Source of the DNA: a virus
Taxonomy: Duplodnaviria; Caudoviricetes
DNA length: 64,000 nt
IMG/VR virus record: IMGVR_UViG_3300010348_001841
Direction: 5' to 3' (one strand)
Both the position numbers and the translations under genes were made by a program. The notes beneath the pieces were generated by a model that made no database searches, had not been told where the DNA came from, and worked only from the letters and a program-made list of their open reading frames with translations. Positions 6,603 to 28,721 of this stretch are shown piece by piece. Position 1 is the first letter of the stretch, and each line of letters starts with the position of its first letter.

Positions 6603-6611
6603 AATAAAAAG

Positions 6612-6678
6612 ATGGATCACGGGTTCGAACCGTGTTCAGCATTGTAAAGAGGCTATGTTACCAAATACACCAATCCGT
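6612..6678 (-). pseudogene. degenerate tRNA-like element (loop CTTTACA; TTA or TAC reading ambiguous)
   Basis: Good D arm and T arm CACGG-TTCGAAC-CCGTG; only about 4-bp acceptor; no CCA. Confidence 0.5.
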
Positions 6679-6679
6679 G

Positions 6680-6755
6680 TGGCGCCTGGTGCAGGATTCG
6701 AACCCGCGACGCAAGGTGTTAGGGACCCCCGCTCTAACCGCTGAGCTAACCAGGC
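6680..6755 (-). tRNA. amber-anticodon tRNA (CTA), putative suppressor
   Basis: 76-nt cloverleaf; acceptor GCCTGGT/ACCAGGC, G73, CCA; anticodon loop CCCTAAC (C33). Confidence 0.8.
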
Positions 6756-6763
6756 ATACATCT

Positions 6764-6792
6764 ATTATGCATAGATGCAATATTGATGTCAA
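6764..6792 (-). promoter_or_regulatory. sigma70 promoter for the amber tRNA
   Basis: TTGACA-17 nt-CATAAT ending 8 nt before the tRNA 5' end. Confidence 0.75.
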
Positions 6793-7109
6793 TCGGTATG
6801 CTTGTACAGATTCCACCGCCTGAAGAAGTTTTGTTCTCTTCTTTCAGTAATGGGCTTTGTGCATAATGCACTGTAACCCATCGGACCGAAATCAGGCTCA
6901 TAGAACATATAGAATTCAATACCTCTTCCATCAATAGTATCTGCAATCCGCTTTAGATCATCTTGGTCCTTGGCAGAAAGAAGAATCATACTCGAGATCC
7001 CGTTTGTATCCTGGAATTTTTTGCCGGCCTCATAGCAAGCATGTCCAATCTGGACAATTTTTTGCTCAGGTGACAAATCTTCCCTGATAAACATATAGAT
7101 ATAGCTCAT
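6789..7109 (-). CDS. peptidyl-tRNA hydrolase, Pth2-like
   Basis: YMFIREDLS..KIVQIGHA, FYEPD, SALCTKP pattern of the phage PTH2-like family. Confidence 0.7.
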   Translation of the reverse strand: MSYIYMFIREDLSPEQKIVQIGHACYEAGKKFQDTNGISSMILLSAKDQDDLKRIADTIDGRGIEFYMFYEPDFGPMGYSALCTKPITERREQNFFRRWNLYKHTD

Positions 7110-7426
7110 TGTATTTCCTTTCCGTGGACCTTAATTTCCTTAGCATACGAAAGAAGTTGTTGCTTCTCCTCTTCATCAAGCCAGGTAATCAGGGTTGAAT
7201 TCTTGATTGCCCAAAGTGCTGATTCAAGAGATCCATACGGGTATGCACCGTTCTCAAGCTTAACGGGGTTGGTGATGGGTTTGAATGATTTCTGAAGTCT
7301 GCTAATCGCACCATTCTTGCCTTGTTCTTTGACAAGGGCCCTGTAAATGCACAGAGCAGCGATATCTTCACGAGTAATTTTACGTTCGGCAGCGAGTGCC
7401 TTCCATTGTTGACGAATGTCTTTCAT
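7106..7426 (-). CDS. hypothetical protein coupled to the Pth-like gene
   Basis: Start MKDIRQQ with AGGAAG RBS; ATGA overlap with next gene. Confidence 0.7.
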   Translation of the reverse strand: MKDIRQQWKALAAERKITREDIAALCIYRALVKEQGKNGAISRLQKSFKPITNPVKLENGAYPYGSLESALWAIKNSTLITWLDEEEKQQLLSYAKEIKVHGKEIQ

Positions 7427-7430
7427 TTTG

Positions 7431-7537
7431 TTCTTCCTATAAAAAATTTGTTGATTAGAAAAATTGCGTTGCACAAGATTGAGCTAATCAATTCTTAGGA
7501 AGAATTGTAATAAACCTACATCATAGTAGTTTCTCCA
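7431..7537 (-). promoter_or_regulatory. minigene ATG-ATG-TAG plus RBS-sequestering hairpin
   Basis: GGAGA RBS, minigene 7524-7516; TTCTTCCTA (7504-7496) pairs with TAGGAAGAA (7439-7431); inner stem TTGATTAG/CTAATCAA. Confidence 0.7.
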
Positions 7538-7650
7538 TATAAGTTGTAAAACTATTTAGTCTCAAAACGAGACACACAAATAAAATAGGTAAGATGTTGA
7601 TTATAAGTCAAGATCACAGATGTACGGTTATCAGCCTATACATATACCTA

Positions 7651-7826
7651 TGTTTATGAATTGTGTAGATCCTTCCGTCTTCAACACGGACGCGCCCGAT
7701 TGGCCGAAACCAATATACACTGTTATACACAATTCATAAACACAGCTATATTTGTGAATTAGGTAGTCCTTCTTTCAGCGCGTCCGCCTATTCGTGTGCC
7801 GCACACCGTTATACCTAATTCACAAA
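7651..7826 (-). ncRNA. two tandem homologous stem-closed RNA elements
   Basis: Perfect 17-bp (7651-7667/7726-7742) and 15-bp (7751-7765/7812-7826) inverted repeats; interiors share TAACRGTGT...GAAGGA. Confidence 0.65.
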
Positions 7827-7831
7827 CACAG

Positions 7832-7900
7832 AGCGTCCAGCCGGAATCGAACACGGTCTCCTAGTTGAAGCTAGGTATGTTACCATACACCATGGAATAT
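7832..7900 (-). ncRNA. tRNA-like element with 6-nt CTTCAA loop (possible opal TCA anticodon)
   Basis: D arm, perfect CCTAG/CTAGG stem, TTCGATT loop; short acceptor; no CCA. Confidence 0.55.
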
Positions 7901-7915
7901 GTGTTTGTTACCACT

Positions 7916-7944
7916 ACTTTAGTCACCTATTAGCAACCTGTCAA
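7916..7944 (-). promoter_or_regulatory. sigma70 promoter
   Basis: TTGACA-17 nt-TAAAGT. Confidence 0.6.
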
Positions 7945-8045: not shown

Positions 8046-8939
8046 CTATAGCAGCTCGAGCGCTGTTCCGCAATCTGAACAGAATTTAGCATTCGCTTTA
8101 TTCAGATGTCCACAAGTGGTACATTTTTGTTTTGTCTTAACTGTGACAGGTTGCTTAACTTCGACTTCGCCTACTTTGCCAAACAATCTCAGAACAATTA
8201 CATGAGATTGTGACTCAGAATTAAAACCATAGACGGGAACAAATTCCTGGGATACCTTTGAACCTGCTACCGTAATGCCTGCCTCATTGGCTGTTTGGGC
8301 CTGATTGATGAATACGCTATCTGCTGTCGGAGTAGCCGCATTCATAGCAATTGCATCACCTGCAATAGTAGCTGAGGCAGAAGCCACGGCACTCTGCACC
8401 ACAGCGTCACCAAGGCCGCGAGCAGCACCGAGCTTGACACCAGAAATATCCCCACTCTTACTTGCAATGGATCCTGTTGTAGAATAGTATGGCCCTGTTG
8501 TCCAAGTTTGATGCCATGTCGGCCAAGTAGTCTCTTTTACAAAAATATCTTTGTAATAATTGGTTGTGTAGGTGTACTCATGAGCACGCTTTTCGAACCA
8601 GTATTCAACACTAATGATGCCATCCTCGGCTTTTATGCCGCGTGGTCCATTCTCAATCTTCTCAGTACGCTCGATAAATTTGAAGGCATTACCCTCTTTC
8701 ATATTACCGTTACGCATGAAACGCTTGATTTCTGTTTCGGAGTTTGCATTGACAACAATATCGTCACCCAATGCATCGTCGCCGTCAATGCGCAACCTAA
8801 ATTTCACACGACGGGAATCAAGGTTCTTTACAAGAACGCTGTATTCAGATCCAAATGGGAGTTTTACAATATCGCCGTTTTCGCGAAGGATTTTTCCGTT
8901 GTGTTTGATAGCCACAACGAGCTTATTTTGATACATCAT
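8046..8939 (-). CDS. hypothetical protein with C-terminal zinc ribbon
   Basis: CTTCG...FCSDCG. Confidence 0.75.
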   Translation of the reverse strand: MMYQNKLVVAIKHNGKILRENGDIVKLPFGSEYSVLVKNLDSRRVKFRLRIDGDDALGDDIVVNANSETEIKRFMRNGNMKEGNAFKFIERTEKIENGPRGIKAEDGIISVEYWFEKRAHEYTYTTNYYKDIFVKETTWPTWHQTWTTGPYYSTTGSIASKSGDISGVKLGAARGLGDAVVQSAVASASATIAGDAIAMNAATPTADSVFINQAQTANEAGITVAGSKVSQEFVPVYGFNSESQSHVIVLRLFGKVGEVEVKQPVTVKTKQKCTTCGHLNKANAKFCSDCGTALELL

Positions 8940-11794: not shown

Positions 11795-12472
11795 TTACCA
11801 GAGTAGGTCAAAGTAACCACGCATAACCTTTGATACGGTTGAAGTTTTATCACTATTGTGATCTTTAACGGTATCGTCTTGGAAGCGATATGTTCTAATC
11901 TTATCGCCTCTCATTCCCGAACCAACCTGTTGCTTACGCTCAGCCGATAATGATTGATTTTTTTCTCGTCTGTCATTTTGTTGAAGAAGTTGAATCATTG
12001 TCGATTTTGCTTCCTCAAGACTTGTTTGGCGTGAACGATTTTGTGAAGTAGTTACAAGGCCTGTTTCTATATGAATGACTCTACAAGAATTTTGATGTTT
12101 ATTCCTGTGTTGGCCACCAGCGCCTGTGCCACTAAACCATTCTATACGAAAATCTTTATCAGTATAATCTCTCTTCTGTATAGATGGATCAATTACCGCA
12201 ACGGTAACTGTACTTGTATGGACTCTTCCACGTTTTTCAGTAGGTGGAATTCGCTGAATTCTATGCCCACCTGCTTCATTTTGTAACTGTGTTAAATTTT
12301 CCCCGACTATTTCGATATGCAATTCGCCGGGCATGTCTCTAATCACACGATTGAGTCATCCTACGCGATCAAAATGTCGTTGATATGCTTGTGCAAGATC
12401 TTTCACGAAGAGCTTGCTATCTTCTCCGCCCTCAGCGGATCTAATTTCAACTATCCTGCGTTGAGTTGTCAT
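11795..12472 (-). CDS. prfA: RF1-like peptide chain release factor lacking domain 1, with in-frame UGA at codon 39
   Basis: [21 protein letters not shown] (PxT), KIRTY; upstream in-frame segment [31 protein letters not shown] with GAGGA RBS. Confidence 0.85.
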
Positions 12473-28634: not shown

Positions 28635-28721
28635 TGGTGGACCCTGATAGATTTGAACTATCGAAACCTGTGGTGCCGGATGTACATGCCCGGTGGGTTT
28701 GCCCGCTTCCCTAAGGGATCC
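28635..28721 (-). tRNA. Tyr-like tRNA with 8-nt anticodon loop
   Basis: Loop CATGTACA; paralog of 28543-28629; A73, CCA. Confidence 0.6.

What the first reader, a model, noticed from the sequence alone, without database searches (positions are those of the whole stretch)
7106..7537. Met-Met-amber minigene gating the RBS of the peptidyl-tRNA hydrolase operon
Seen: a GGAGA RBS precedes ATG ATG TAG (7524-7516). Eleven nt later TTCTTCCTA pairs perfectly with the downstream gene's RBS region TAGGAAGAA, reinforced by an 8-bp inner stem. Readthrough of the TAG would continue V-Y-Y-N-S-S to a TAA (7497-7495) within the anti-RBS strand. Established: minigenes such as lambda bar promote peptidyl-tRNA drop-off, which Pth resolves. 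Inference: slow amber termination, slow recycling or amber suppression opens the hairpin and induces the Pth2-like operon. This would be a UAG sensor complementing the UGA sensor in the RF gene.
Basis: partly seen in the sequence, partly recalled or inferred. Interest (0 to 1): 0.8.

Follow-up and report, generated by a model that had tools for sequence, protein, structure and literature searches.

The report
Amber-readthrough gate on phage Pth2 operon
A tiny leader gene in this giant phage ends in a UAG stop that apparently must be overridden by the phage's own UAG-reading tRNA before a hairpin opens and two downstream genes can be translated, which would give phage "stop-suppressor" tRNAs, so far without known targets, a conserved natural target.

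Summary
On the minus strand a strong RBS precedes ATG ATG TAG. Six in-frame codons later a TAA sits inside the strand that pairs with the RBS of an unknown gene ("gene A"), which is coupled to a Pth2-fold gene.

- All 38 distinct related leaders keep this layout. The hairpin covaries (9 pairs with compensatory changes, 0 of 500 shuffles).
- The short ORF varies from 2 to 5 sense codons (MM, MQ, MK, MNM, MSNE and others). The first stop is TAG in 37 of 38.
- A tRNA(CUA) lies next to the operon wherever enough flank exists.
- The one lineage with a tRNA(UCA) has TGA as its leader stop.
- In eight other huge-phage records, six of them cultured phages (XacN1, ME3 and others), the Pth2-like gene itself starts ATG-x(-x)-TAG in frame.

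Best reading (about 0.78): an amber-suppression-dependent translational gate, not a lambda-bar-type drop-off minigene. The drop-off, slow-termination and Met-Met parts are not.

Other agents of this scan noted the same design on other phage DNA. I found no published description. Nothing here is experimental.

The parts
7582..7611 (-). Candidate sigma-70-type promoter of the leader mRNA (TTGACT-18-TATTTT).
   Evidence: Consensus scan, 9 of 12 matches. Weak: it is not conserved in relatives, where a long hairpin abuts the leader instead.
7532..7536 (-). Shine-Dalgarno (GGAGA) of the leader ORF, 7 nt before its ATG.
   Evidence: GGAG or GGA lies 5-8 nt before the leader ATG in all relatives.
7516..7524 (-). 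Leader ORF ATG ATG plus the gating stop TAG (7518-7516), followed by G.
   Evidence: The gating stop is TAG in 37 of 38 distinct hairpin leaders and TGA in the one with tRNA(UCA). The next base is always a purine.
7495..7515 (-). Readthrough extension (V-Y-Y-N-S-S) and the second stop TAA (7497-7495).
   Evidence: An in-frame second stop lies 6 codons (7 in two cases) after the gate in all 38 leaders, always inside the stem. Variation is mostly at third codon positions.
7492..7504 (-). 5' arm of the outer stem (anti-Shine-Dalgarno strand TTCTTCCTAAGAA).
   Evidence: helix 1: 92% of cells paired, 4 pairs with compensatory change. In L094 the RBS ACGGAGT is matched by ACTTCGT.
7451..7491 (-). 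Inner stem (TTGATTAG 7491-7484 with CTAATCAA 7458-7451) and the apical loop.
   Evidence: helix 2: 5 of 6 pairs show changes on both sides. The loop carries a conserved near-palindrome that remains unexplained.
7431..7443 (-). 3' arm of the outer stem, which is the T-run plus the Shine-Dalgarno (TAGGAAGAA) of gene A.
   Evidence: In 36 of 38 leaders at least 5 of 7 RBS bases are paired to the tract after the gate.
7106..7426 (-). Gene A: 106 aa, all-alpha, no known family.
   Evidence: No Pfam or NCBIfam hit. Model pLDDT 91.6 with no solved relative. The family has 205 representative clusters, some of them fused to the Pth2-like domain.
6789..7109 (-). Pth2-fold gene (106 aa), overlapping gene A by ATGA.
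   Evidence: PF01981 E 1e-3, below the cut-off. The profile hits a PDB peptidyl-tRNA hydrolase at E 7.7e-5. Foldseek finds 1q7s, 3erj and 1xty with TM 0.73-0.78 and probability 1.0.
6764..6792 (-). The tRNA(CUA)'s own promoter (TTGACA-17-CATAAT), overlapping the stop of the Pth2-like gene.
   Evidence: 11 of 12 consensus matches. TTGACA/TATAAT-type boxes stand at the same place in L099 and L103.
6680..6755 (-). Amber suppressor-type tRNA, anticodon CUA (loop CCCUAAC, with C at position 33).
   Evidence: ARAGORN. Rfam tRNA model 55.3 bits. A CUA tRNA lies beside the operon in 26 distinct related loci, plus 3 with an odd 9-nt loop that holds CUA.

Best explanation
The leader is a translational gate that reports whether UAG is being read through.

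Off state. A ribosome starts at the strong RBS, makes Met-Met and meets UAG. If a release factor wins, it leaves. The hairpin starts about 11 nt after the stop, outside the ribosome, so it stays closed and keeps the RBS of gene A paired.

On state. If the phage's own tRNA(CUA) decodes the UAG, the ribosome translates six more codons to a UAA that lies inside the anti-RBS strand. The ribosome then occupies and unwinds that strand and part of the inner stem. This frees the RBS, so gene A and the ATGA-coupled Pth2-fold gene are translated. The tRNA(CUA) is made from its own consensus promoter.

Output therefore follows suppressor activity relative to RF1.

Shown here:
- the sequence layout;
- conservation of frame, spacing and pairing;
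- co-occurrence of the gating stop with a tRNA of matching anticodon.

Inferred:
- that the leader is translated;
- that readthrough happens;
- that readthrough opens the stem.

What the two proteins do for or to the suppressor tRNA is unknown.
For: (1) Layout in the window.

(2) Conservation of the layout.
- 38 distinct hairpin leaders come from IMG/VR, JGI, ENA, Logan and NCBI contigs whose gene A proteins reach down to profile E about 1e-14 to 1e-25.
- All 38 have an RBS, a 2-5-codon ORF, a gating stop followed by a purine, 6-7 in-frame codons, and a second stop (TAA in 36, TGA in 2) inside the stem.
- Insertions in the ORF (+3 and +6 nt) and in the extension (+3 nt) keep the frame.

(3) Covariation.
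- 91.9% of cells are paired.
- 9 pairs and 46 cells have changes on both sides.
- 0 of 500 shuffles reach this, and slid controls reach at most 64.6%.

(4) Geometry. The stem starts at a median 15th base counted from the first base of the gate.

(5) Stop type. The gate is TAG in 37 of 38 leaders, although TAG ends only 1 of 32 long ORFs in the window.

(6) Link to the tRNA.
- 26 distinct loci have an adjacent tRNA(CUA).
- 3 loci have a tRNA with loop CAC[U/C]CUAAA.
- 8 loci have too little flank to tell.
- The only locus with tRNA(UCA) (L045/L090) has TGA as its gate, with the same spacing.

(7) The same theme in other architectures.
- In the fused gene A-Pth2 forms L093 and L095, the tRNA(CUA) lies directly upstream. 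A uORF with TAG follows, and its readthrough frame crosses an anti-RBS and ends at or over the start codon.
- In XacN1, Xoo-sp13, fHe-Yen9-03, RAS14, RsoM2USA, ME3, LR756511 and LR756501 the Pth2-like ORF itself begins RBS-ATG-x(-x)-TAG-purine, in frame.
- Four of these (fHe-Yen9-03, RsoM2USA, LR756511, LR756501) have no ATG between the TAG and the conserved domain.
- All six cultured phages encode a tRNA(CUA) (PMC5852040 for XacN1).

(8) The window uses the standard code. TAG ends neighbouring genes, and no long gene holds an in-frame TAG.
Against: - There is no experimental or expression evidence.
- The match between stop codon and anticodon rests on one TGA/UCA lineage against many TAG/CUA ones, so there is only one independent switch.
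- Many leaders are related, so the counts are not independent events, and the covariation alignment was fitted to the structure.
- The window's tRNA(CUA) has C33, which may decode poorly. Its amino-acid identity is unknown.
- The single-sequence fold z-scores of most leaders are modest (mean -1.7).
- The conserved apical-loop motif, and the apparent selection on the extension peptide, are not required by this model.
- One fused-form leader (L093) has C, not a purine, after the TAG.
Confidence: 0.78

Rival explanations
1. One reading: a lambda-bar-type two-codon minigene. Slow termination, slow recycling or peptidyl-tRNA drop-off at Met-Met-UAG would open the hairpin and induce Pth.
For: - The window has a strong RBS plus a two-codon ORF in front of a Pth2-fold gene.
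- Minigene drop-off resolved by Pth is established biology.
- 2-5-codon ORFs are drop-off-prone in general (PMC10192219 abstract).
Against: - Sense codons and length are not conserved: MM, MQ, MK, MTQ, MKA, MNM, MMNI, MSNE, MANA, MRKL, MKPFA, and 6 and 12 codons in fused forms.
- The stop type, the in-frame extension and the second stop are conserved, and this model does not need any of them.
- A ribosome waiting on the UAG ends before the stem, and drop-off removes nothing from the stem.
- In the direct forms the TAG sits inside the Pth2-like coding frame itself.
Confidence: 0.06
2. The phage reads TAG as a sense codon throughout (an alternative code such as code 15). The leader would then be an ordinary 9-codon upstream ORF that constitutively couples translation to gene A, not a sensor.
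For: - Phages with reassigned TAG and suppressor tRNAs are known (PMC9523058; bioRxiv 10.1101/2021.08.26.457843).
- The extension shows a coding-like substitution pattern.
Against: - In 64 kb no long gene has an in-frame TAG, and TAG ends neighbouring genes at 8046 and 9830.
- For XacN1 the authors report 18 amber stops and no extensions with database similarity (PMC5852040).
- Only about a sixth of this phage's genome was seen here, so late genes elsewhere could differ.
Confidence: 0.06
3. The short ORF works by termination-reinitiation, or the hairpin is a protein-binding or terminator element. Ribosomes stopping at TAG would restart at the adjacent RTN codon (ATT, ATG, GTG and others) or hand over to the gene A start, independently of any tRNA. 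Alternatively the stem-loop, with its conserved loop and T-run, would be an autoregulatory protein site or an attenuator.
For: - The codon after the gate is often ATT, ATA, ATG or GTG.
- The apical loop CATTGCAATTTTG is conserved and unexplained.
- A T-run follows the inner stem.
Against: - This does not explain why the stop is TAG in 47 of 48 cases, and TGA exactly where the tRNA is UCA.
- It does not explain why a matching tRNA is always nearby.
- Many post-gate codons (GTT, GTC, GTA, ACC, AAC) are not start codons.
- The T-run is itself paired in the outer stem with covariation, and the stems are AT-rich, so the structure is a poor intrinsic terminator.
Confidence: 0.08

Closest known systems
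Leader-peptide translational attenuation (ermC, cat, cmlA leaders; arrest-peptide uORFs such as SecM-secA, MifM-yidC2 and the NSP-stop / NAP-stop uORFs, PMC10987492)
   Same: A short translated upstream ORF has its own RBS. The downstream RBS is locked in a hairpin whose 5' strand lies in or just after the leader frame. A ribosome sitting on that strand unmasks the RBS.
   Different: The signal is not a drug, a secretion state or an amino acid. It is whether an early in-frame stop codon is decoded by a suppressor tRNA. No Pro-rich arrest motif exists in this clade: the peptide ends N-S-S-stop. RGPP, RDPP and SPP do occur in distant fused forms.
prfB (RF2) autoregulatory UGA frameshift site
   Same: An early in-frame stop codon acts as a sensor of termination efficiency at that codon and sets the output of a translation-termination-related gene.
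   Different: The escape route here is readthrough by a dedicated tRNA, not a +1 frameshift. The sensor is a separate upstream ORF acting through an RNA hairpin. The product is a Pth2-fold protein, not the release factor itself.
Engineered amber-codon leader switches (a TAG placed in trp or tna leader peptides so that suppressor activity controls downstream genes; reviewed in PMC6412442, section 6)
   Same: The logic is the same: translation of a leader beyond an inserted UAG, which depends on a suppressor tRNA, turns the downstream gene on.
   Different: Those switches are man-made and act on transcription through Rho or attenuators. This one is natural, widespread in huge phages, and appears to act on translation initiation.
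Lambda bar minigenes
   Same: RBS plus ATG plus one or two codons plus a stop. Both are thematically linked to peptidyl-tRNA hydrolase.
   Different: The bar effect depends on the last sense codon and on drop-off. Here the sense codons vary, and the stop type, the extension and the second stop are what is kept.
Stop-codon-recoded phages with suppressor tRNAs (code 15 / code 4; crAss-like and Lak phages)
   Same: A phage-encoded suppressor tRNA is needed to translate phage genes with in-frame stops.
   Different: Here the genome otherwise uses the standard code, and the only conserved in-frame TAG found is this gate.

Membership tests
Lambda bar-type minigene | RBS, ATG, one or two sense codons, then a stop | tested here: met
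   The window has GGAGA-7 nt-ATG ATG TAG.
Lambda bar-type minigene | Function tied to the length and last sense codon of the minigene, so these should be conserved | tested here: not met
   Relatives have 2-5 sense codons (6 and 12 in fused forms), with last codons ATG, CAA/CAG, AAA, GAA, GCC, TTG, ATT and others.
Lambda bar-type minigene | Peptidyl-tRNA drop-off and toxicity in Pth-limited cells | not testable with these tools
   This needs expression in pth(ts) hosts.
Leader-peptide translational attenuation (erm/cat type) | Translated upstream ORF with its own RBS | tested here: inconclusive
   RBS spacing and reading frame are kept across indels, and the variation is coding-like. There are no expression data.
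Leader-peptide translational attenuation (erm/cat type) | Downstream RBS paired with a strand that lies within the leader frame | tested here: met
   (36 of 38 leaders). Covariation.
Leader-peptide translational attenuation (erm/cat type) | Ribosome stalling in the leader triggered by a ligand or state | not testable with these tools
   The trigger proposed here is readthrough. Stalling at the second stop is only a lead (N at -3, as in the NSP-stop peptides of PMC10987492, but no Pro at -1).
Peptidyl-tRNA hydrolase 2 (PF01981) | Pfam model at its gathering score | tested here: not met
   19.8 bits against a cut-off of 23. 8 of 12 family members match, best E 2.6e-4.
Peptidyl-tRNA hydrolase 2 (PF01981) | Pth2 fold | tested here: met
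   The model has pLDDT 89.6. Foldseek finds 1q7s, 3erj, 2zv3, 1xty and 1wn2 with probability 1.0 and TM 0.72-0.78, with a clear gap to the next rows. The profile hits 24bt_A at E 7.7e-5.
Peptidyl-tRNA hydrolase 2 (PF01981) | Hydrolysis of peptidyl-tRNA | not testable with these tools
   An enzyme assay is needed. The substrate could equally be an aminoacyl- or peptidyl- form of the suppressor tRNA.
Stop-codon-recoded phage (TAG read as an amino acid genome-wide) | Many conserved genes interrupted by in-frame TAG | tested here: not met
   None was found among long ORFs in the 64-kb window, and TAG ends genes at 8046 and 9830. The rest of the genome was not available.
prfB-type stop-codon autoregulation | The product acts on the same stop codon that gates its synthesis | not tested
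   The function of gene A and the Pth2-fold protein towards UAG decoding is unknown.

The most novel reading that the evidence does not exclude
The module is a self-limiting circuit for amber suppression. Gene A plus the Pth2-fold protein (fused into one protein in some phages) would act on the suppressor tRNA itself, for example by hydrolysing its aminoacyl or peptidyl form. Because they can only be made when that tRNA reads the gate, the phage would hold UAG readthrough at a set level. This would be a tRNA-level counterpart of RF2 autoregulation. It could also be the control knob by which standard-code phages, and perhaps phages on the way to codon reassignment, tolerate their own suppressor.
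Probability: 0.25. Interest if true: 0.92.

Novelty: new variant of a known kind. Interest (0 to 1): 0.85.

Why it matters
- Many large phages that use the standard code carry amber suppressor tRNAs, and no target gene has been found for them. [quoted passage not shown] The phage Summit announcement says the same (PMC9022506 abstract).
- This gate is a conserved, testable target: a Pth2-fold gene, with or without gene A, whose translation depends on the matching suppressor.
- It would be the first natural leader known to sense suppressor-tRNA activity. So far that logic exists only in engineered switches.
- It links phage tRNA(CUA), an RF1-like factor, tmRNA and Pth2 into one termination-control island.
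- It points to annotation errors. The gene is missing or mis-started in the public records of fHe-Yen9-03, RsoM2USA, XacN1 and others.
- Cultured phages carry the direct form, so experiments are feasible.

Tried and rejected
- Rfam: no family matches the leader or the upstream region, at gathering score or at E up to 1.
- DNA search of the phage collection with 3 kb around the site: no match. tblastn of gene A against it: no match.
- No whole genome is held for the window.
- GTDB genome scan for gene A: no relatives.
- Pattern scan of IMG/VR for the loop-plus-RBS motif: it returned only the already known contigs plus chance hits.
- RNAalifold on the plain MAFFT alignment found only the outer stem, because the inner stem was misaligned. 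A covariance model gave the structural alignment instead.
- Gene A fold: no convincing solved relative. Foldseek best E is 1.3; VIA-align best Z is 6.0, on helical repeats.
- Complex prediction of gene A with the Pth2-like protein returned no verdict, so it says nothing either way.
- Identity of the tRNA(CUA) by likeness to the window's other tRNAs: unresolved.
- hhalign of XacN1 ORF364 against the gene A profile: no similarity, so its N-terminal part is not gene A.
- I considered whether TAA readthrough by the tRNA-like UUA element carries ribosomes to the ATGA overlap in the window. The open frame exists here but is not conserved in relatives, so I treat it as chance.
Full report
**What is there**

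The window is part of a very large phage. It carries 40 tRNA genes and a permuted tmRNA, all on the minus strand. Long structural-type ORFs are intact under the standard code. Related contigs are 127-385 kb. No whole genome is held for the window.

At the finding, on the minus strand, the elements are as follows:
- GGAGA (7536-7532), then 7 nt, then ATG ATG TAG (7524-7516);
- six more in-frame codons (V-Y-Y-N-S-S);
- TAA at 7497-7495;
- TTCTTCCTA (7504-7496), the exact complement of TAGGAAGAA (7439-7431), which is the RBS of the next gene (ATG at 7426);
- an 8-bp inner stem, 7491-7484 with 7458-7451.

The fold is -25.4 kcal/mol, z -2.5.

The gene behind the hairpin is not the hydrolase. It is an unknown 106-aa protein, which I call gene A (7426-7106). 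The Pth2-like gene (7109-6789) overlaps it by ATGA. Directly behind that lies a tRNA with anticodon CUA (6755-6680). This tRNA has its own near-consensus promoter, TTGACA-17-CATAAT, overlapping the Pth2-like stop codon.

**Is it more than chance?**

One sequence alone is weak evidence. ATGATGTAG occurs twice in the window against 0.64 expected. The case rests on relatives.

I collected loci from several sources:
- searches with gene A and the Pth2-like protein in IMG/VR, plus 34 JGI/ENA metagenome loci;
- look-ups of diverged family members found by a profile search of 1.8 billion representative proteins, which returned 205 clusters.

Every locus whose upstream DNA is present has the element. 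Across 38 distinct hairpin leaders:
- an RBS lies 5-8 nt before an ATG;
- 2-5 sense codons follow;
- then comes a stop followed by a purine;
- 6 in-frame codons follow (7 in two cases);
- a second stop (TAA 36 times, TGA twice) lies inside the strand that pairs with the RBS of gene A.

All leaders fold the same way. In 36 of 38, at least 5 of 7 RBS bases are paired to that strand.

A covariance-model alignment of 31 leaders gives the following:
- 91.9% of cells are paired, against at most 64.6% with slid partners;
- 9 pairs and 46 cells show changes on both sides;
- 0 of 500 shuffles reach this;
- the inner stem changes on both sides at 5 of 6 pairs.

The alignment was fitted to the structure and many sequences are related, so these are not independent events. 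The plain MAFFT subset already shows the trend. In L094 the RBS itself has changed, to ACGGAGT, with a compensating anti-RBS ACTTCGT.

**What is conserved and what is not**

The Met-Met is not conserved. Leaders read MM, MQ, MK, MTQ, MKA, MNM, MMNI, MSNE, MANA, MRKL and MKPFA. Indels come in threes, so the frame from the ATG through the gate to the second stop is always kept.

The first stop is conserved. It is TAG in 37 of 38 leaders, although TAG is the rarest stop in the window (1 of 32 long ORFs).

The six extension codons vary mainly at third positions. Minority counts in codons 1-4 are 19 at position 1, 5 at position 2 and 32 at position 3. The changes are conservative (V/I, Y, F/L/Y, N/D, S/T, S/T). 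This suggests the extension is translated.

**The link to the tRNA**

- 26 distinct loci have a tRNA(CUA) beside the operon.
- Three more (L006, L099, L103) have a tRNA that ARAGORN calls Arg. Its 9-nt loop, CAC[U/C]CUAAA, is the same as in L101, where ARAGORN calls CUA.
- Eight loci have too little flank to tell.
- One lineage (L045 = L090/L091) has a tRNA(UCA) instead. Its leader reads AAGGAGAATACC ATG CGT AAG TTG TGA GTG TAC CAA GAT ACT TCC TAA. The gate has become TGA, with the same spacing and the same hairpin.

No mismatched case was seen. This is only one independent switch, but it is the result the readthrough model predicts and the other models do not.

**The theme beyond this clade**

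Some family members are single proteins with gene A fused to the Pth2-like domain (P0160, P0161, P0164). In L093 and L095:
- the tRNA(CUA) lies immediately upstream;
- a 6- or 12-codon uORF ends in TAG;
- the readthrough frame runs 23-25 codons across an anti-RBS tract and ends at the RBS (L093) or in an ATGA overlap with the start codon (L095).

A tblastn search with the Pth2-like half found it in cultured jumbo phages. In all eight records examined, the Pth2-like ORF itself begins RBS-ATG-x(-x)-TAG-purine in frame:

| Phage record | Start of the Pth2-like ORF |
|---|---|
| XacN1 | ATG AAG TAG ACC |
| Xoo-sp13 | ATG AAG AAG TAG AAC |
| RAS14 | ATG AAG TAG ACC |
| fHe-Yen9-03 | ATG TCT CAC TAG ATT |
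| RsoM2USA | ATG TTG TAG ATT |
| ME3 | ATG ACT TAG ATT |
| LR756511 | ATG ACT CAC TAG GTT |
| LR756501 | ATG TCG TAG ATT |

In fHe-Yen9-03 and RsoM2USA there is no ATG between the TAG and the conserved YxFxRxD core, and the public records leave the gene unannotated.

All six cultured phages encode a tRNA(CUA):
- ME3: adjacent;
- fHe-Yen9-03: 3 kb away;
- Xoo-sp13, RAS14 and RsoM2USA: elsewhere in the genome;
- XacN1: by its paper, which also states that no target genes for these tRNAs could be identified (PMC5852040).

Across huge phages, then, the Pth2-fold gene is made conditional on amber suppression. The condition is set either directly in its coding frame or, in the window's clade, through a leader and an RBS-hiding hairpin.

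**Mechanism**

Established ribosome geometry is my own knowledge here, not measured. The mRNA is unwound about 11-13 nt, and covered to about 15-16 nt, 3' of the first P-site base.

- With the UAG in the A site, the stem begins at about +18 (median 15th base from the gate). A terminating or pausing ribosome therefore leaves the stem closed.
- With the second stop in the A site, the whole outer 5' arm and part of the inner arm are inside the ribosome, so the RBS of gene A is free.

The purine after the gate fits the classical context preference of amber suppression (own knowledge). The tRNA has its own promoter, so it is an input to the gate and not merely a passenger of the operon.

I put this reading at about 0.78. 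Translation of the leader, readthrough and opening of the stem are all inferred.

**The proteins**

The Pth2-like protein has the Pth2 fold:
- model pLDDT 89.6;
- Foldseek hits 1q7s, 3erj, 2zv3 and 1xty at probability 1.0 and TM 0.72-0.78;
- profile hit to a PDB peptidyl-tRNA hydrolase at E 7.7e-5.

It falls below Pfam's cut-off.

Gene A is a confident all-alpha fold (pLDDT 91.6) with no solved relative. The fusions argue that the two proteins work together. What they do is open. They might clean up peptidyl-tRNA produced by readthrough, or act on the suppressor itself, which would give negative feedback.

**Rivals**

- The bar-like drop-off reading fails on the variable sense codons and on geometry.
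- Genome-wide TAG reassignment is not seen in this window, and the XacN1 authors report none for their phage.
- Reinitiation or a protein-binding hairpin does not explain the stop type or the matching tRNA.
- The conserved apical loop (CATTGCAATTTTG) and the selected-looking extension peptide remain unexplained. Asn at -3 recalls the NSP-stop and NAP-stop termination-arrest uORFs (PMC10987492), but there is no Pro at -1. A second layer of control is possible.

**Known or new?**

Five full-text searches found no description of a natural leader or gene gated by a phage suppressor tRNA.

The nearest things are:
- erm/cat-type and arrest-peptide attenuators, which have the same hairpin logic but a different signal;
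- the prfB UGA sensor;
- engineered TAG-in-leader switches (PMC6412442).

Other agents of this scan reported the same design on other phage DNA, there often with RAPP- or RGPP-type arrest ends, and likewise found no paper. I reached the reading independently before that look-up and tested it on my own loci. In my set, Pro-Pro ends occur only in distant forms: L095 has RGPP, L093 has RDPP, and L096 ends SPP-stop.

**Verdict**

- I class it as a new variant of leader-peptide attenuation with a new kind of input.
- It is of high interest because it gives orphan phage suppressor tRNAs a conserved target and is directly testable in cultured phages.

Noticed in passing
window 11798-12472 (-): A release factor of RF1 type (PPT tripeptide, GGQ; NF001859 E 4e-53). 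It lacks domain 1 and has an in-frame TGA after codon 38 (VG*LNR). A phage RF1 would compete with the phage tRNA(CUA) at the gate.
   Followed up: partly
window 7830-7944 (-): A sigma-70-like promoter (TTGACA-17-TAAAGT, 7944-7916) is followed by a tRNA-like piece. The piece has an anticodon-arm-like hairpin CCTAG-CTTCAAC-CTAGG (UCA in the loop) and a TTCGATT loop. ARAGORN and Rfam do not call it.
   Followed up: no
window 7648-7826 (-); also L003, L004, L021, L037, L039, L050 just upstream of the leader: Two tandem long hairpins: TGTGTTTGTGAATTAGGTA...TACCTAATTCACAAATA and TGTGTTTATGAATTGTGTA...TACACAATTCATAAACA. The second type recurs in relatives with compensatory changes and abuts the leader. 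It could be a processing site or a structured RNA.
   Followed up: no
window 7461-7473 (-); alignments A2 and A5: The apical loop of the leader hairpin carries a conserved near-palindrome (CATTGCAATTTTG in most relatives). The readthrough model does not need it.
   Followed up: partly
window 6680-6755 (-); L017; L006, L099, L101, L103: The amber tRNA has C instead of U at position 33 in the window and in L017. Another subgroup has a 9-nt anticodon loop CAC[U/C]CUAAA, which ARAGORN calls variously Arg or CUA.
   Followed up: partly
window 6609-6680 (-): ARAGORN calls a tRNA with anticodon UUA directly after the CUA tRNA. It does not reach Rfam's tRNA threshold, and its acceptor stem is weak. 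It resembles the tRNA-like piece at 7830-7905.
   Followed up: no
window 28635-28721 (-): ARAGORN reports a tRNA with a four-base anticodon (tgta) inside the tRNA array.
   Followed up: no
L106 (LT960552 about 286826-287170); L108 (MG752970 about 68910-69230); L104 (AP018399 ORF364): Public annotations omit the Pth2-like gene (fHe-Yen9-03, RsoM2USA) or start it late (XacN1, Xoo-sp13, RAS14, ME3), because of the TAG at codon 3-4.
   Followed up: yes
L095:2385-2503, L093:80-180, L096:275-300: In distant relatives the readthrough extension contains Pro-Pro motifs (RGPP, RDPP, SPP-stop) of the kind known from ribosome-arrest peptides. The window's clade has N-S-S-stop instead.
   Followed up: partly
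L143 (LR756501, 735 kb phage) about 1477-1640: After the ATG TCG TAG gate, the Pth2-like frame meets another stop about 33 codons on. This may be a second in-frame stop or a truncated copy.
   Followed up: no
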